From: a virus
Length of the DNA stretch: 64,000 bases
Direction: 5' to 3' (one strand)
Virus record (IMG/VR): IMGVR_UViG_3300045988_098116
Span: 1-64,000 of that record
The position numbers and the translations under genes were made by a program. Below, one piece after another: positions 23,748 to 55,147 of the stretch. Position 1 is the first letter of the stretch. The number at the start of each line of letters is the position of its first letter. The notes below the pieces were generated by a model that was not told where the DNA came from, ran no database searches, and saw only the letters and a list, made by a program, of their open reading frames with translations.

Positions 23748-23912
23748 ATGATCCCCTCCAACATCAATTTGGGCGATACCGTCACCCGCCGCATCGAGGC
23801 CACAGACCGCAAGGCCACCGGAACAGTCGTTTACATCCACCCGGAGGGCCGCTACTACACCGCCGAATTTGACCTCGGTCTCTACAAAATCCGCGAGTCC
23901 TTCAACACCTGA
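23748..23912 (+). CDS. small hypothetical protein (54 aa)
   Basis: Hand-translated. TAAGGAGGG RBS. Confidence 0.5.
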   Translation: MIPSNINLGDTVTRRIEATDRKATGTVVYIHPEGRYYTAEFDLGLYKIRESFNT

Positions 23913-23938
23913 AAATTCTTTCAAAAACTTTCAGAAGT

Positions 23939-23962
23939 TCCCTTGACACGGGGCGCATACTT
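23939..23962 (+). promoter_or_regulatory. TCCCTTGACACGG box followed by ATACTT, heading the tRNA/ncRNA locus
   Basis: Exact 13-mer. No ORF follows for about 1.5 kb. Confidence 0.55.
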
Positions 23963-24169
23963 AAAATTGCCGAAGGGGAGACCCCTTCCCCGACGGCTTC
24001 GGTGTACCCCCCGAATTATATAAGCCCTTCCGTAAGAAAGGCTGCACCGGTCTTACATCCATTCTTCCGGTGTTCCCAGCGCAATTCTGGCAGGAACGCG
24101 GTCACGGGGGCGCAAGCCCCTCTGTCGCACGTCAGCTCGCCCACCAGGACGTAAACAAGGTGGGGGTCC

Positions 24170-24245
24170 GGTGTCGTAGCTCAGCTGGCAGAGCAGCTCA
24201 TTCGTAATGAGCAGGTCGTGGGTCCGATCCCCACCGATACCTCCA
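24170..24245 (+). tRNA. tRNA-Thr(CGT): tRNA-Thr (anticodon CGT), CCA encoded
   Basis: Hand-folded cloverleaf: GGTGTCG/CGATACC acceptor, GCTC/GAGC D stem, GCTCA-TTCGTAA-TGAGC anticodon arm, GTGGG-TCCGATC-CCCAC T arm. The T loop is TCC rather than TTC. Confidence 0.8.
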
Positions 24246-24419
24246 ATTCTACGTGGACACCGCGAGTGACGAGCGTATAGCGGAACAGCCGTATGGGTGA
24301 TGCGAAGTCCTGAAGTAAGCCCCTCAAGCCTCGATGTTGTAATTGCGCCTGTGATCTGCTGGCAAAAGCGAGGCACGGAAAAGATCTGGCGGCTCGGAAA
24401 GACGAGCAACCCCCTCAAT

Positions 24420-24510
24420 GCAGATGTACCTCAGCCGTGGAAGAGGGTCTGATCGTAGCGTAAAGCGCGAGCTCGGAAAGTCGCAGGTTCGAATCCTGCC
24501 GTCTGCACCA
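24420..24510 (+). ncRNA. tRNA-like element (91 nt) lacking a normal anticodon loop
   Basis: Has the acceptor (GCAGATG/CGTCTGC plus ACCA), U8, a D arm (CCTC..GG..GAGG) and a T arm (GCAGG-TTCGAAT-CCTGC). The anticodon-stem position (TCTGA/TCGGA) encloses 20 nt that fold into GCGT-AAA-GCGC. Confidence 0.55.
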
Positions 24511-24836
24511 TAGGCGTGACCTCTTGCCTCGCAGCCGCACGGAGCGTAAGCCTGCGGAAGTGGTCTTTCCTGTGCGCTGTACGAAAGCGGCAGGACGAAG
24601 TAATTTATGTATTGGCTGGCACCGGCTTTGTAAAGATGAACGGATGCGACCGACGTACCGGCGCAGGGCTGAAAAGTTCCGTGGTTGGTTCGGGTGCCGG
24701 CGTGTGCGGCGAAAATCCGAGGCGATAACCTATAGATGTGGAAGCGGCGTGGTGGCGGCTGTCTTTGGACAAGGCCGCCGTGTAGGTCAGTAGCCATCCG
24801 CACCGGCACCCCGCCAACTGTGTCCCCGCAAAATTT

Positions 24837-24913
24837 GCAGCGTTAGTGTTCAACGGTCAGCACACCAGCCTTCCAAGCTGGGAGTGGCGGTTCGAATCCG
24901 CTACGCTGCTCCA
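24837..24913 (+). tRNA. tRNA-Gly(TCC): tRNA-Gly (anticodon TCC), CCA encoded
   Basis: GCAGCGT/ACGCTGC acceptor, CCAGC-CTTCCAA-GCTGG anticodon arm, GGCGG-TTCGAAT-CCGCT T arm. Confidence 0.8.
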
Positions 24914-25083
24914 TGCCCGCCTGATGGATGACTTCCCCCGTCAGGAATGAAACCTCCGCATCTGGCAGCGGTGTCGCCGGGTCGAACCAGCCGGTAGCAT
25001 GATTTGGGCGTGACAGCGAACGAAGGACGCCCCACCCCATCGGGGAGGCGGGCATCCCCCAGCCCGTCCTCCCCACTCTCTAC

Positions 25084-25231
25084 GCAGGAGCGCCGTTGGG
25101 GCGCTTGCACGGCACACACAGAGATCTCCTTTCTGCTGCTGTTGTTCGGACACATCAACACCTCCAATGTTCATGTTCTATTTTCCGTGCGCCGGCAAGC
25201 CATGCGGGTTCGACTCCCGCCTCCTGCTCCA
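25084..25231 (+). ncRNA. tRNA-like element (148 nt) with a 72-nt insertion in place of the anticodon loop
   Basis: GCAGGAG/CTCCTGC acceptor plus TCCA and GCGGG-TTCGACT-CCCGC T arm. The GCACGG (25107-12) / CCGTGC (25185-90) helix encloses a lower-GC insert. The D region is a CGCC-GTTGG-GGCG hairpin without U8/A14. Confidence 0.5.
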
Positions 25232-25404
25232 TCGGACGCGATAGGCGTCCGCGGTCCAGATAGGACCTCCTTTATAAATGCTGCGGCTGTAAGAAGCAGC
25301 ACCGGGTTTTGTTCATTTTCCCCGGCTCCTGTTGGAATACAGGCAGGCCAAGCGATTTCTCCTTCCGGGCGGCGCGGTCTGGGCAGCCCGCCGCCCAACC
25401 CCCT

Positions 25405-25480
25405 GGGGGATTAGCTCAATCGGCAGAGCAGGCCGCTCATAACGGCCCGGTTCCGGGTTCAAGTCCCCGATCCCCCACCA
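25405..25480 (+). tRNA. tRNA-Met(CAT): tRNA with CAT anticodon (Met, or Ile2 if lysidinylated), CCA encoded
   Basis: GGGGGAT/ATCCCCC acceptor, GCTC/GAGC D stem, GGCCG-CTCATAA-CGGCC anticodon arm, T arm with one mismatch. Confidence 0.8.
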
Positions 25481-25538
25481 GCCGCAAGGCGATAAAACGT
25501 TTCAGTCTGAAATCTACAACAGAAAGGAGGCACATTCC

Positions 25539-25814
25539 ATGACCAAGAGCGAGTTTATTTCTACTCTGGCAGCAGCGACCGACATGAAGAAGTCCGACGT
25601 CGAGCGCGTGATCGCCGCCGCTGCCAACACCCTTACCGGCGTCATGCGCTCCGGCGACAGCGTGAATATCTCCGGCTTCGGCATCTTCACCAGCAAAGTC
25701 CGCGACGCGCACCCCGGTAAGAACCCCGCTACCGGCGAGGCCATCACCGTCCCCGCTAAGCGCGTGGCCATCTTCAAGCCCGCAAAACAGCTCAAGGATG
25801 CCGTCAACAGCTGA
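25539..25814 (+). CDS. hup: HU/IHF-family histone-like DNA-binding protein
   Basis: MTKSEFISTLA...GDSVNISGFGIFTSKVRDAHPGKNPATGEAITVPAKRVAIFKPAKQLKDAVN. GAAAGGAGG RBS. Confidence 0.9.
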   Translation: MTKSEFISTLAAATDMKKSDVERVIAAAANTLTGVMRSGDSVNISGFGIFTSKVRDAHPGKNPATGEAITVPAKRVAIFKPAKQLKDAVNS

Positions 25815-25959: not shown

Positions 25960-27015
25960 ATGATCTACTTCGACAACGCCGCCACCACACCGGTGCTTCC
26001 CTGCGCGTGGGAGGCCATGCAAGCCGCGCCGGAGGCAAACCCATCCAGCAGCCACGCCGCAGGGCGTGAGGCAAAAGCCGCGCTGGAAAACGCCCGCGCC
26101 GCCATCGCCCGGTGCCTCAACTGTGCTCCCTGCGAGGTCTACTTTACCTCCGGCGCCACGGAAAGCTGCAACTGGATGGTCAAATGTCTCCGCATAGAGA
26201 CAGACAGCATCATCTACAACGACACCGTTCACCACGCCGTCAGCGGGGGCATCCACGCCTATTCTTCCCCCAATGCGCCCCGCGGAAAGCCCTCCGCCGT
26301 CCTTTCTCTCGTCAACAATGAAACCGGGCAGATATGCGATGTGGACGCTTTCTGCCGCAAAAACCGTCCGCACCGCATCGGCATAGACGCCACCGCCGCC
26401 GTAGGCCACATCCCCGTGGACTTCAAGGCGCTGGGTGCGGACTACATGGCTTTCGGCGGCCACAAGTTCGGTTCCCTCAAGGGCATAGGCGCGTTGATTG
26501 TCAAGGAGGGGTGTCCCATCGCCCCCATGATCTTCGGCGGCGCACAGGAGCGCGGTATGCGCGGCGGCACGGTCTCCGTCCCCCTTGTCAGCTCTATGGC
26601 CGCCGCCCTCACCTGGCGCTCCCTCCACATGGAGGAAAACGAGAAAGCTATCCGCGCCGTCGCTCAAGAGCTTATCATTTCCCTTGGTTGCCACCGTGTG
26701 GATTTCGACATCAATCTGCCCGGCGGCAAAAGCAGCAAGGATTGCGCTCCCCACATCCTCTCCATCCGTTTTCCCGGCGTCTACGGCGCTGCCCTCGCCG
26801 CCGCCCTCAGCGTAAACGGCGTCATGGTGTCTACCGGCTCCGCCTGTTCCTCCGGCGACAACGCCGCCTCCGCCAACCTCATGGCCAGCGGCCTTACCGA
26901 GCAGGAGGCACTGGAGACCATCCGCTTCTCCTTCGACTGGTACAACACCACCGCCGAGGCATCCGAGGCCGCCGGCATCATCGCCGATATTGTCCCCACA
27001 CTCCGTCGCGGCTAA
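25960..27015 (+). CDS. cysteine desulfurase (NifS/IscS-like, aminotransferase class V)
   Basis: MIYFDNAATTP, GGHKFGSLKGIG (PLP lysine), SACSSG (catalytic Cys). GAAAGGAG RBS. Confidence 0.85.
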   Translation: MIYFDNAATTPVLPCAWEAMQAAPEANPSSSHAAGREAKAALENARAAIARCLNCAPCEVYFTSGATESCNWMVKCLRIETDSIIYNDTVHHAVSGGIHAYSSPNAPRGKPSAVLSLVNNETGQICDVDAFCRKNRPHRIGIDATAAVGHIPVDFKALGADYMAFGGHKFGSLKGIGALIVKEGCPIAPMIFGGAQERGMRGGTVSVPLVSSMAAALTWRSLHMEENEKAIRAVAQELIISLGCHRVDFDINLPGGKSSKDCAPHILSIRFPGVYGAALAAALSVNGVMVSTGSACSSGDNAASANLMASGLTEQEALETIRFSFDWYNTTAEASEAAGIIADIVPTLRRG

Positions 27016-54936: not shown

Positions 54937-55012
54937 TGGCGGAAACGGCAGGGTTTGAACCTGCGCCCCTCTGATTAACAGTCAGATGCTCTGCCAACTG
55001 AGCTACATTTCC
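54937..55012 (-). tRNA. tRNA-Asn(GTT): tRNA-Asn (anticodon GTT), CCA encoded
   Basis: Minus sense: GGAAATG/CGTTTCC acceptor, GCTC/GAGC D stem, TCTGA-CTGTTAA-TCAGA anticodon arm, GCAGG-TTCAAAC-CCTGC T arm. Confidence 0.85.
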
Positions 55013-55072
55013 GTATGGGGCTTGCGCCCCCATAAACTCCCTTTCGGGCGAAAACGATCCAACGTTTTCATC

Positions 55073-55147
55073 TGGCACGGACGCGAGGACTCGAACCTTG
55101 AACTGCGGTTTTGGAGACCGCCGTTTTCCCGGTTAAACTAAATCCGC
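55073..55147 (-). tRNA. tRNA-Trp(CCA): tRNA-Trp (anticodon CCA), CCA encoded; some stem mismatches
   Basis: Minus sense: GCGGT-CTCCAAA-ACCGC anticodon arm, GTTT/AAAC D stem, TTCGAGT T loop. Acceptor has one mismatch and two G-U pairs. Confidence 0.7.

What the first reader, a model, noticed from the sequence alone, without database searches (positions are those of the whole stretch)
23939..25538. 1.5-kb ORF-free, hairpin-dense RNA locus: tRNAs separated by 170-330-nt structured spacers
Seen in the sequence: a TCCCTTGACACGG box at 23939 is followed by about 1.5 kb with no RBS-led ORF until hup at 25539. This stretch holds three canonical tRNAs (Thr-CGT, Gly-TCC, CAT) and two tRNA-like elements, all with CCA encoded. 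They are separated by spacers of roughly 205, 174, 326, 170 and 173 nt, which is long for a tRNA array. The spacers are full of GC helices. Examples are the GNRA-capped GGGGC-GCAA-GCCCC at 24107-24120, CGGACGC-GATAG-GCGTCCG at 25233-25251, and a long-range closing helix pairing 24914-24927 with 25037-25054. Established knowledge: large ornate prophage ncRNAs (the ROOL and GOLLD classes) typically sit beside tRNAs, and HDV-like theta ribozymes flank tRNAs in gut phages. Inference: the spacers may be functional RNAs released by tRNA-type processing, or parts of one large ornate RNA with embedded tRNAs. I could not fold them into any named family by eye.
Basis: partly seen in the sequence, partly recalled or inferred. 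Interest (0 to 1): 0.75.

Follow-up and report, generated by a model that had tools for sequence, protein, structure and literature searches.

The report
Phage array of tRNA-punctuated structured RNAs
In this gut-phage locus the long "spacers" between tRNAs are conserved RNAs with compensating base-pair changes that match no curated RNA family, and they are separated by real tRNAs and by tRNA look-alikes that have lost their anticodon, so they are probably functional RNAs excised by tRNA-processing enzymes, although their function is unknown.

Summary
Window 23913-25538 (+) has no credible gene. It carries tRNA-Thr, tRNA-Gly and tRNA-Met plus two tRNA-like elements that lack a normal anticodon loop: T2 (24420-24510) and T5 (25084-25231). 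All five encode CCA.

The spacers are not filler.
- RNA-A (24511-24826, about 315 nt) shares an exact 21-mer with at least 118 IMG/VR phage contigs.
- RNA-B (24914-~25054) occurs in 85 contigs.
- RNA-C (24246-~24408) occurs in 38 contigs.
- The two remaining spacers (RNA-D, RNA-E) are conserved, with compensatory changes, in diverged relatives.

Each of RNA-A, -B and -C starts directly after the CCA of a tRNA or tRNA-like element. Covariation is strong: 92-95% of cells pair, against 32-50% in slid controls, and 0 of 500 shuffles reach the observed score. Module order and combination differ between phages, so these are independent RNAs, not one giant RNA.

Rfam 15 gives only tRNA hits. There is no ROOL, GOLLD, HDV-like, RNase P or tmRNA match.

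Best reading: a co-transcribed RNA island in phages of Oscillospiraceae, cut by RNase P and by tRNA 3'-end enzymes into stable RNAs that act in trans. Processing and function are inferred, not shown.

The parts
23913..23975 (+). Conserved upstream box: an A/T-rich stretch, then TTGACACGG ... TTGCCGAAGGG. It may be a non-sigma-70 promoter or the transcript 5' end.
   Evidence: Conserved in relatives, including the roughly 62%-identical locus L142 (TT[G/T]ACACGG and TTGCC.AAGGG are invariant). No sigma-70-type promoter was found.
23976..24169 (+). RNA-D (spacer 1). The conserved core lies at about 23990-24095. It is followed by window-lineage hairpins, including the GNRA-capped 24107-24120.
   Evidence: Alignment A6 shows compensatory changes by inspection: AGCC..GGCU to AGCUCC..GGAGCU, and CCAG-CGCAAUU-CUGG to CGCG-UGCAAUU-CGCG. 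In L159, L008 and L142 the core is followed directly by a tRNA-like element. The 5' half folds with z -3.1.
24170..24245 (+). tRNA-Thr (CGU), CCA encoded
   Evidence: ARAGORN; Rfam tRNA 61.8 bits
24246..24419 (+). RNA-C (spacer 2). It starts at the CCA of the preceding tRNA. Its core contains GAUGCGAAGUCCUGAAGUAAGCCCC. It ends with the hairpin GCUCG-GAAAGA-CGAGC (24392-24407).
   Evidence: The 25-mer occurs in 38 IMG/VR contigs. In alignment A5, 11 of 28 predicted pairs have double changes. The terminal hairpin varies as GCUCG/CGAGC, GCCGG/CCGGC, GCCUG/CAGGC and GUCUG/CAGAC.
24420..24510 (+). tRNA-like T2. Acceptor, D arm, T arm and ACCA are intact. The anticodon loop is replaced by an extended stem capped by GUAAA.
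   Evidence: Rfam tRNA 47.5 bits with a 19-nt insert in the anticodon loop. ARAGORN does not call it. Fold.
24511..24826 (+). RNA-A (spacer 3), about 315 nt. Its parts are a 5' variable domain, hairpin Pb (24568-24595) and hairpin Pc GCUGG-CA-CCGGC (24615-24626). The invariant core ACGGAUGCGACC..GGCGCAGGGCUGAAAAGUUCCGUGG spans 24640-24684, and GAGGCG lies at 24719-24724. Hairpin Pg with a conserved AG bulge spans 24754-24779. The long closing helix Pf pairs 24681-24709 with 24798-24822.
   Evidence: The 21-mer at 24660 occurs in at least 118 viral contigs and in 4 Oscillospiraceae/Eubacteriales MAGs. Covariation in A4: 91.7% of cells paired against 34-50% in slid controls, 19 of 38 pairs with double changes, 0 of 500 shuffles. 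In A2: 94.9% against 32-50%, 15 of 39 pairs. 73 of 79 unique 3' domains form the closing helix in their minimum-energy fold. No Rfam match.
24837..24913 (+). tRNA-Gly (UCC), CCA encoded
   Evidence: ARAGORN; Rfam tRNA 42.1 bits
24914..25054 (+). RNA-B (spacer 4). It reads UGCCCGCC, a variable hairpin, then GGAAUGAAACCUCCGCAUCUGGCAGCGGUGUCGCCGGGU..GCCGGUAGC and a further hairpin. A closing helix specific to the window's lineage follows.
   Evidence: The pattern occurs in 85 viral contigs, always directly after CCA. Hairpin 1 has 5-9 consecutive pairs in 8 sequence versions, against 0.6 in shuffles. Two other pairs covary: G-C/A-U/G-U and U-A/C-G/G-C.
25084..25231 (+). tRNA-like T5. It has an acceptor stem, a small D-like hairpin, a T arm and UCCA. 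A roughly 95-nt low-GC arm replaces the anticodon arm and displays an unpaired CACCUCC, which resembles an anti-Shine-Dalgarno sequence.
   Evidence: Fold and z -3.1. The acceptor covaries (GCAGGAG/CUCCUGC against GCGGAAG/CUUCCGC). A C/U-rich motif (ACCUCCC, CUCCC, CCCUCC) is kept in an otherwise diverged arm in L142, L052 and L170.
25232..25404 (+). RNA-E (spacer 5): a series of hairpins between T5 and tRNA-Met
   Evidence: Alignment A7 shows compensatory changes by inspection: GCUGC..GCAGC to GCUGU..ACAGC, CCGGG..CCCGG to CUGGG..CCCAG, and CCUGU..ACAGG to CCUGC..GCAGG. The first hairpin is replaced by a different hairpin in L170 and is absent in L142. The only terminator-like site (25253-25267) is weak.
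25405..25480 (+). tRNA-Met/Ile2-type (CAU), CCA encoded
   Evidence: ARAGORN; Rfam tRNA 59 bits
25539..25814 (+). hup (HU-family DNA-binding protein), the first gene after the RNA island, on the same strand
   Evidence: Pfam PF00216, E 3e-27

Best explanation
The locus is a phage-encoded RNA island. It is probably one co-transcribed precursor on the + strand in which five structured RNAs (D, C, A, B, E) alternate with three real tRNAs and two anticodon-less tRNA-like elements.

The tRNA-shaped elements serve as punctuation. Host RNase P cuts at their 5' ends, which sets the 3' end of the preceding RNA. The tRNA 3'-end machinery, meaning RNase Z or another endonuclease acting at the encoded CCA, frees the 5' end of the following RNA. 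The result is a set of discrete, stable RNAs of about 140-320 nt.

The tRNA-like elements keep exactly the parts these enzymes read: acceptor stem, elbow and NCCA. They have lost the anticodon loop, which those enzymes ignore.

The released RNAs are independent, horizontally shuffled modules. They most likely act in trans during infection, in the same genomic niche as ROOL and GOLLD. The large RNA-A, with about 50 invariant nucleotides, is the candidate for a sophisticated function. T5 looks like a tRNA-scaffolded RNA that presents a C/U-rich, anti-Shine-Dalgarno-like segment able to pair with ribosome-binding sites.

Shown: conservation, covariation, placement at CCA, modularity, and absence from Rfam. 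Inferred: co-transcription, the processing enzymes, action in trans, and any target.
For: (1) Recurrence. RNA-B is in 85 contigs and RNA-C in 38. A 43.9-kb phage (MT835513) shares only the RNA-A region (window 24480-24684, 12% of the locus) with the window.
(2) Structure under selection. Searches give 92-95% paired cells against 32-50% when partners are slid. 19 of 38 and 15 of 39 pairs have changes on both sides. No shuffle of 500 reaches the observed covariation. Many G-U pairs would be A-C on the other strand, so the constraint is on + strand RNA.
(3) Junctions. RNA-A, RNA-B and RNA-C begin 0-3 nt after CCA (CAA in a few loci). A tRNA or tRNA-like element ends at -142 to -175 from the RNA-A anchor. 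Another tRNA often starts at +153 to +228.
(4) Anticodon-less tRNA-likes. Of 134 unique tRNA-shaped elements with perfect acceptor, T arm and NCCA, 50 are not callable as tRNAs. The same acceptor, GCAGACG/CGUCUGC+ACCA, sits on very different bodies.
(5) Modularity. Module orders include [A] alone, B-C, C-A-B and A...B, all on the tRNA strand.
(6) No protein partner is universal. The best neighbour families are in 31 or fewer of about 120 loci.
(7) No frame is consistently open.
(8) From established knowledge: RNase P recognises the acceptor/T-stem stack, the elbow and 3'-RCCA but not the anticodon arm. ROOL and GOLLD sit near phage tRNA islands (PMC12286853; PMC5737381).
Against: There are no expression or end-mapping data, so co-transcription and cleavage at CCA are unproven. 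In Firmicutes, RNase Z is classically inhibited by an encoded CCA, so the enzyme that frees the module 5' ends is unknown. No promoter or terminator was identified. RNA-D, RNA-E and T5 are documented only in the window's own lineage and a few diverged relatives. The loci were collected with exact seeds, so the invariance of the seeded regions is partly by construction. In some phages RNA-A lies within about 100 nt of a gene start (L002). The island usually precedes packaging genes, which would also fit a cis-acting role.
Confidence: 0.65

Rival explanations
1. The modules are self-cleaving ribozymes that cut at their own 5' end and so mature the 3' end of the upstream tRNA. This is the job theta (HDV-like) ribozymes do in other gut phages.
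For: All three widespread modules begin exactly at the CCA of the upstream tRNA or tRNA-like element. The host enzyme that would cut there is not obvious. Theta ribozymes show the principle exists (PMC10879173).
Against: No HDV-like, hatchet, glmS, twister, pistol or hammerhead model matches at E <= 10. The modules are 140-320 nt with three or more unrelated folds. I could not draw an HDV-type double pseudoknot for RNA-B without breaking a covarying hairpin. Theta partners lack CCA in 95% of cases and their hosts are about 90% Bacteroidota. Degenerate tRNA-likes would need no 3' maturation.
Confidence: 0.1
2. The modules are cis-acting leaders, for example processive antitermination elements or riboswitch-like sensors. 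They would control the downstream genes, which are hup and, in most phages, the terminase and packaging operon.
For: The island typically lies between early or regulatory genes and terS, terL and portal genes. In L002 RNA-A is followed within about 100 nt by an RBS and a start codon. All modules are on the coding strand of the downstream genes.
Against: The modules are usually bracketed by tRNAs on both sides. Downstream genes differ widely: HU, methylase, two TerL types and TerS types. Several unrelated modules in series, in shuffled order, are not expected of one leader. No terminator or antiterminator alternative was found.
Confidence: 0.1
3. The whole 1.5 kb is one giant ornate RNA with embedded tRNAs, as suggested for some GOLLD RNAs whose linker holds tRNAs.
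For: GOLLD can carry tRNAs in its linker region. In the window's lineage the order C-A-B is stable across about 15 loci.
Against: RNA-A occurs alone in at least 41 loci. B-C, B alone, C alone, and A...B separated by 0.6-3 kb all occur. Each module closes on itself, for example through the long helix Pf of RNA-A. No long-range pairing between modules was seen.
Confidence: 0.05
4. The spacers are decayed tRNA genes or neutral filler. On this view the similarity reflects recent common ancestry, or DNA-level sites such as attP, origin or pac, and not RNA function.
For: Phage tRNA arrays do decay, and half-degenerate tRNAs are present. An integrase gene lies 3 kb downstream. Thermodynamic z-scores of most spacers are unremarkable.
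Against: Compensatory changes and strand-specific G-U pairs are present. Invariant blocks sit next to helices whose sequence is completely replaced between subfamilies. The modules appear in unrelated phage backbones. The tRNA-likes keep both acceptor strands with compensatory changes, unlike attP fragments.
Confidence: 0.04

Closest known systems
ROOL and GOLLD RNAs (large ornate phage/prophage RNAs)
   Same: They are encoded by phages and prophages, often next to tRNA islands and probably co-transcribed with them. They have no dedicated protein partner, complex conserved folds and unknown function. GOLLD can have tRNAs in its linker (PMC12286853; PMC5737381).
   Different: There is no sequence or structure match to either covariance model. 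RNA-A is about 315 nt, against about 580 nt for ROOL and more than 800 nt for GOLLD. Here several unrelated smaller modules are arrayed. Each starts exactly at a CCA and is punctuated by dedicated anticodon-less tRNA-likes.
Theta ribozymes (minimal HDV-like ribozymes next to tRNAs in gut phages)
   Same: Both are structured RNA elements in gut phages that lie directly (within 5 nt) against a tRNA gene and are linked to tRNA-end formation.
   Different: Theta ribozymes are small HDV-like folds. About 95% of their partner tRNAs lack CCA, about 90% of hosts are Bacteroidota, and they associate with suppressor tRNAs and recoding. Here every partner encodes CCA (or CAA in a few related loci) and the hosts are Oscillospiraceae. 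The elements are 140-320 nt, and no HDV-like model matches.
Stable RNAs C and D (species 1 and 2) in the phage T4 tRNA gene cluster (from my own knowledge)
   Same: They are non-tRNA stable RNAs encoded inside a phage tRNA cluster. They are co-transcribed with the tRNAs, cut out by the tRNA-processing machinery, and still have no known function.
   Different: They belong to unrelated phages and hosts. They are smaller and are not known as widespread, shuffled, covarying families.
tRNA-punctuated release of other RNAs: mitochondrial tRNA punctuation, MALAT1-mascRNA, MHV68 tRNA-miRNA units, and E. coli tRNA-spacer sRNA sponges such as 3'ETS-leuZ (from my own knowledge)
   Same: tRNA or tRNA-like structures recruit RNase P and RNase Z to define the ends of neighbouring functional RNAs. 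In bacteria, spacers of tRNA operons can be functional.
   Different: Those neighbours are mRNAs, miRNAs or short unstructured sponges. None is a series of large, highly structured RNA families in a phage, and bacterial examples do not use degenerate tRNA-likes.

Membership tests
tRNA (Rfam RF00005), applied to T2 24420-24510 | Cloverleaf scoring above the family gathering score (29 bits) | tested here: met
   47.5 bits
tRNA (decoding), applied to T2 | A 7-nt anticodon loop on a 5-bp stem | tested here: not met
   A 19-nt insert sits in the loop position. The fold shows an extended stem with a GUAAA cap. ARAGORN does not call it.
tRNA, applied to T5 25084-25231 | A covariance-model or ARAGORN call | tested here: not met
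   No Rfam or ARAGORN hit. Only the acceptor, T arm and NCCA are tRNA-like.
ROOL RNA | A match to the Rfam covariance model (about 580 nt, six multistem junctions) | tested here: not met
   No hit at E <= 10 in 23850-25600. None at gathering score in the window or in 12 related loci.
GOLLD RNA | A match to the Rfam covariance model (conserved 3' half, more than 800 nt) | tested here: not met
   No hit
ROOL/GOLLD (context only) | Located in a phage or prophage next to a tRNA island | tested here: met
   The window matches phage MT835520 at 97%.
HDV-like / theta ribozymes | A nested double-pseudoknot fold detected by HDV-family models | tested here: not met
   No HDV-family hit at E <= 10. A manual attempt on RNA-B conflicts with a covarying hairpin.
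HDV-like / theta ribozymes | Directly abuts a tRNA, and the partner tRNA usually lacks an encoded CCA | tested here: inconclusive
   The abutment is met (0-3 nt after the tRNA). However, every partner here encodes CCA (or CAA in a few related loci), against 4.5% for theta partners.
HDV-like / theta ribozymes | Self-cleavage at the ribozyme 5' end | not testable with these tools
   Needs in vitro transcription and a cleavage assay
RNase P RNA, tmRNA (including permuted), group I intron, hammerhead, twister, T-box, 5S rRNA, Y RNA | A match to the Rfam covariance model | tested here: not met
   The only such hit is tmRNA_permuted at 12.8 bits, E = 7 (gathering 47), overlapping the T arm of T2. 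ARAGORN finds no tmRNA.
RNase P / RNase Z substrates (tRNA punctuation) | Acceptor stem, T arm/elbow and 3'-NCCA are retained while the anticodon arm is dispensable | tested here: met
   50 of 134 unique tRNA-shaped elements keep a perfect acceptor, T arm and NCCA but have no callable anticodon arm. The acceptors show compensatory changes.
RNase P / RNase Z substrates (tRNA punctuation) | Actual cleavage at the predicted sites | not testable with these tools
   Needs end-mapping or enzyme assays

The most novel reading that the evidence does not exclude
RNA-A, and perhaps RNA-B and RNA-C, are new classes of large phage RNAs with a sophisticated biochemical role. They could be ribozymes that act at tRNA CCA ends, or RNA-only assemblies that engage tRNAs or ribosomes as proposed for ROOL and GOLLD. 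On this reading the anticodon-less tRNA-likes are not mere punctuation. They would be tRNA mimics that present Shine-Dalgarno-like (AGGAGG) or anti-Shine-Dalgarno-like (CCUCC) segments to reprogram host translation.
Probability: 0.25. Interest if true: 0.9.

Novelty: new variant of a known kind. Interest (0 to 1): 0.72.

Why it matters
Large, highly conserved bacterial and phage RNAs without a known job are rare, and in the past they have led to new biochemistry. This locus yields at least three widespread families missing from Rfam 15. One is about 315 nt with a roughly 50-nt invariant core. It also yields a clear organising rule: each RNA starts at the CCA of a tRNA or of a tRNA look-alike that has kept only the features read by processing enzymes.

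That rule gives a way to find more such RNAs, by looking for long conserved 'spacers' in phage tRNA arrays. It also makes a concrete hypothesis testable: that phages use tRNA punctuation to produce non-tRNA RNAs. It widens the unexplained link between phage tRNA islands and ornate RNAs (ROOL, GOLLD, T4 species 1 and 2) to abundant gut Oscillospiraceae phages. Finally, the natural tRNA-scaffolded RNAs may interest RNA engineers.

Tried and rejected
- **Thermodynamic stability of the window spacers against shuffles.** Most are not significant, so this cannot support the claim.
- **Sigma-70 promoter and intrinsic-terminator scan.** It found no promoter and one weak terminator-like site.
- **One global MAFFT alignment of all RNA-A 3' domains.** Helices whose sequence is entirely replaced between subfamilies were misaligned, and RNAalifold collapsed. 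I used a well-aligning subset (A4) and per-helix counts instead. Helix Pf3 is out of register by one column in A4 and therefore scores only 57%.
- **RNAalifold on RNA-B.** It proposed pairing UGCCCGC with GCGG.GU. I rejected this because the variable column breaks it, while the competing hairpin CUCC[G/A]C / G[C/U]GG.G covaries.
- **Resemblances by eye.** I considered RNase P CR-V (CCGGCUUA), group II domain V, 5S rRNA (RNA-B), two-piece tmRNA (a possible tag frame PLASQPHGA*), T-box UGGN pairing with NCCA, and HDV-like P1. None is supported by the covariance models or by covariation, and all were dropped.
- **Coding test.** No frame across the RNA-A core is open in all homologues.
- **attP remnant idea.** Rejected because both acceptor strands are present and covary.
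- **Literature.** I found no description of these RNAs. The catalogue of 10,006 anonymous viral structured-RNA candidates (PMC10690425) could contain them, but its supplements are not held. A 2026 preprint on mining non-coding elements could not be opened.
- **Protein partner search.** No neighbour family is found in more than about a quarter of loci.
Full report
**1. The observation**

- ARAGORN finds tRNA-Thr(CGT) 24170-24245, tRNA-Gly(TCC) 24837-24913 and tRNA-Met(CAT) 25405-25480.
- The Rfam tRNA model also hits 24420-24507 at 47.5 bits, but with a 19-nt insertion where the 7-nt anticodon loop should be. I call this element T2.
- A second tRNA-like element, T5, spans 25084-25231. It has a 7-bp acceptor stem (GCAGGAG/CUCCUGC), a canonical T arm and U+CCA. 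A roughly 95-nt low-GC arm replaces the anticodon arm. It folds better than all 200 shuffles.
- All five elements encode CCA.
- hup starts at 25539 (Pfam Bac_DNA_binding).
- The flanking genes are on the same strand: an ORF6N antirepressor-type protein upstream, then HU, a class-V aminotransferase and a tyrosine recombinase downstream.
- The window matches an unannotated human-faecal phage record at 97% (MT835520).

Two parts of the observation are weaker than stated. Hairpin density is mostly what a 59% G+C sequence gives by chance; only 23940-24089 and T5 have z near -3. The TTGACA box has no sigma-70 -10 partner.

**2. The spacers are conserved RNA modules**

A second phage record (MT835513, 43.9 kb) shares only window 24480-24684, at 90% (12% of the locus). 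The alignment extends the similarity to about 24800. That region is the 3' end of T2 plus the following spacer. The pair already shows a compensatory change, UCCUG..CAGGA to GCCUG..CAGGC.

It also occurs in four MAGs, all Oscillospiraceae, Oscillibacter or Eubacteriales. Conservation runs from the CCA of T2 to about 24826. I call this roughly 315-nt element RNA-A.

*RNA-B.* The spacer after tRNA-Gly holds a second family, RNA-B (24914-~25054). It is found in 85 contigs, always directly after a CCA.

*RNA-C.* The spacer after tRNA-Thr holds a third family, RNA-C (24246-~24408), found in 38 contigs.

*RNA-D, RNA-E and T5.* The first and last spacers, and T5, are documented only in the window's lineage and in a few relatives at 62-82% identity (L142, L170, L052). 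Their hairpins still show compensatory substitutions, and one hairpin is swapped for a different one.

**3. RNA structure is under selection on the + strand**

*3' domain of RNA-A* (17 sequences, 38 pairs):
- 91.7% of cells form standard pairs, against 34-50% when partners are slid.
- 19 pairs change on both sides, against 4-9 in slid controls.
- The covariation score is 0.40, against 0.13 or less.
- No shuffle of 500 reaches the observed values.

*Whole RNA-A* (30 sequences, 39 pairs): 94.9% paired against 32-50%, 15 pairs with double changes, 0 of 500 shuffles.

The long closing helix Pf has completely different sequences in different subfamilies: GGGUGCCGG, CCGGCAUUGC, CUCUUGGC..CCAGA, GGCGGAGGA and AAGAGCGGUGGCGG. 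It still forms in the minimum-energy fold of 73 of 79 unique 3' domains.

Hairpin Pg keeps an AG bulge while both of its stems are replaced (by inspection). Several helices use invariant G-U pairs, which would be A-C on the other strand. The constraint is therefore on + strand RNA and not on DNA.

Between the helices lies an invariant core: GCUGGnnCCGGC, ACGGAUGCGACC-loop-GGCGCAGGGCUGAAAAGUUCCGUGG, GAGGCG and GUGG. Part of this invariance comes from seeding the search on the 21-mer.

*RNA-B.* Its first hairpin has 5-9 consecutive pairs in eight sequence versions, against 0.6 in shuffles. Two other pairs covary, G-C/A-U/G-U and U-A/C-G/G-C.

*RNA-C.* 11 of 28 predicted pairs have double changes.

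No reading frame across the RNA-A core is open in all homologues.

**4. Relationship to tRNAs**

In the oriented loci, a tRNA or tRNA-like element ends at -142 to -175 from the RNA-A anchor, which is immediately 5' of RNA-A. Another tRNA often starts at +153 to +228.

The upstream partner varies. It can be tRNA-Gly, Met, Trp, Ser, Thr or Phe, or one of several degenerate tRNA-likes.

RNA-A, RNA-B and RNA-C all start 0-3 nt after the CCA (CAA in a few loci). The distance from a module's 3' end to the next tRNA is variable, as for an ordinary RNase P leader.

A census of tRNA-shaped elements (perfect 7-bp acceptor, 5-bp T stem, T-loop, NCCA) gave 134 unique sequences. ARAGORN cannot of them, and 6 more have aberrant anticodon loops. 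The commonest class keeps acceptor, D arm and T arm but replaces the anticodon arm with about 17 nt containing AGGAGG. The same acceptor stem plus ACCA (GCAGACG/CGUCUGC-ACCA) recurs on very different bodies.

So the parts that RNase P and the 3'-end enzymes read are retained, and the part they ignore is lost. The statement about what RNase P reads is established knowledge. That these elements are its substrates is inference.

**5. Independent modules, not one RNA**

Module maps of about 180 loci show RNA-A alone (with its tRNA-like), B-C, C-A-B, A...B separated by kilobases, C alone and B alone. All are on the tRNA strand.

Neighbouring genes also differ. They include two TerL types, TerS types, portal, methylase, HU and XRE regulators, and none is present in more than about a quarter of loci. 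The island usually sits between early or regulatory genes and the packaging module. This argues against one giant RNA and against a dedicated protein partner.

**6. Comparison with known families**

cmscan against Rfam 15 gives only tRNA hits:
- in the window at gathering thresholds;
- in the locus at E <= 10;
- across 121 kb of twelve related loci;
- in twelve further small loci at E <= 5. The one exception there is a skipping-rope RNA in L102, outside the modules.

ROOL, GOLLD, HDV-like, hammerhead, twister, group I intron, RNase P, tmRNA, T-box, 5S and Y RNA are therefore not matched.

ROOL and GOLLD share the niche: phage or prophage, next to tRNA islands, unknown function, and sometimes tRNAs inside GOLLD's linker. 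Theta ribozymes share the direct contact with tRNAs but differ in size, fold, host and the CCA status of their partners.

From my own knowledge, the T4 tRNA cluster also encodes two stable non-tRNA RNAs of unknown function. tRNA punctuation is known from mitochondria, MALAT1/mascRNA and MHV68, and E. coli tRNA spacers can be functional sponges.

I found no paper describing these particular RNAs. They could be among the 10,006 anonymous candidates of PMC10690425, which I could not check.

**7. Interpretation**

The best-supported reading is a phage RNA island transcribed as a precursor and cut at tRNA-shaped punctuation into discrete structured RNAs. These RNAs are horizontally shuffled among phages of gut Oscillospiraceae.

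Their function is not known. I think action in trans during infection on the translation apparatus or on host defences is most likely, by analogy with the niche of ROOL and GOLLD.

T5 is a candidate tRNA-scaffolded regulator. Its arm sequence is diverged between relatives, but an unpaired C/U-rich, anti-Shine-Dalgarno-like motif persists: CACCUCC in the window, ACCUCCC in L142, CUCCC in L052 and CCCUCC in L170.

Rival readings are not excluded. They are self-cleaving elements that mature the upstream CCA end, or cis-acting leaders of the packaging genes. They are less likely for the reasons given under each rival.

**8. Verdict**

The families are new relative to Rfam, and the kind (structured phage RNAs tied to tRNA islands) is known. 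The systematic CCA-abutting arrangement with dedicated anticodon-less tRNA-likes is a new variant. Expression, processing and function remain to be shown.

Noticed in passing
L102:72-166 (+): A curated Rfam motif of unknown function, skipping-rope RNA (RF02924), scores 45.6 bits (gathering 36.7). It lies just upstream of the tRNA-like + RNA-A unit of this phage contig, so known orphan ncRNAs share these islands.
   Followed up: partly
related loci, e.g. L022:310-382, L008:8047-8119, L092:408-479: This is the commonest anticodon-less tRNA-like class: 72-73 nt, with more than 25 unique versions. It keeps acceptor GCAGACG/CGUCUGC+ACCA, the D arm and the T arm. The anticodon arm is replaced by CCGCGCC(A/G)GGAGGUAUG, a Shine-Dalgarno-like AGGAGG on a tRNA body.
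   Followed up: partly
window 25150-25165 (inside T5); L142, L052, L170 homologues: An unpaired anti-Shine-Dalgarno-like motif (CACCUCC, ACCUCCC, CUCCC, CCCUCC) is kept inside an otherwise diverged low-GC arm of the tRNA-like T5. RNA-B also has an invariant AAACCUCC.
   Followed up: partly
window 24266-24272; L004-type 92-nt element; L008/L034-type 112-115-nt tRNA-like: A short motif, GAGUGAC (or AAGUGAA), recurs in RNA-C. It also appears in a cloverleaf-like element without a T-loop (GCGGCAU...AUGCCGUACCA) that precedes RNA-A in many phages, and in the long variable arm of another tRNA-like class. Its meaning is unknown.
   Followed up: no
window 25960-27015 (+): A class-V aminotransferase / cysteine-desulfurase-like gene (Pfam PF00266, E 2e-45) lies two genes after the RNA island. 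Homologues are near RNA-A in 18 loci and HU in 26. Cysteine desulfurases supply sulfur for tRNA thiolation, so a link to the tRNAs is conceivable.
   Followed up: no
L013, L052, L170 and others (3' ends of tRNA-likes): Some tRNA-like elements that precede modules end in CAA instead of CCA.
   Followed up: no
L067:620-690, L092:623-693: The tRNA that ARAGORN calls Trp(CCA), which precedes RNA-A in many phages, scores best against the tRNA-Sec model (36-37 bits, below threshold). It has an unusual shape.
   Followed up: no
window 54937-55147 (-): A second, ordinary tRNA pair sits on the opposite strand: Asn-GTT and Trp-CCA, 60 nt apart. This shows what a normal short spacer looks like in the same genome.
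   Followed up: no
L018/L026-type loci, about 154 nt between tRNA-Gly and RNA-A: Another CCA/CAA-ending element fills the 140-180-nt gaps seen in many module maps. It contains CACCGG-AUUUGCAA-CCGGUGU, which is reminiscent of the RNA-D core. More module families probably exist.
   Followed up: no
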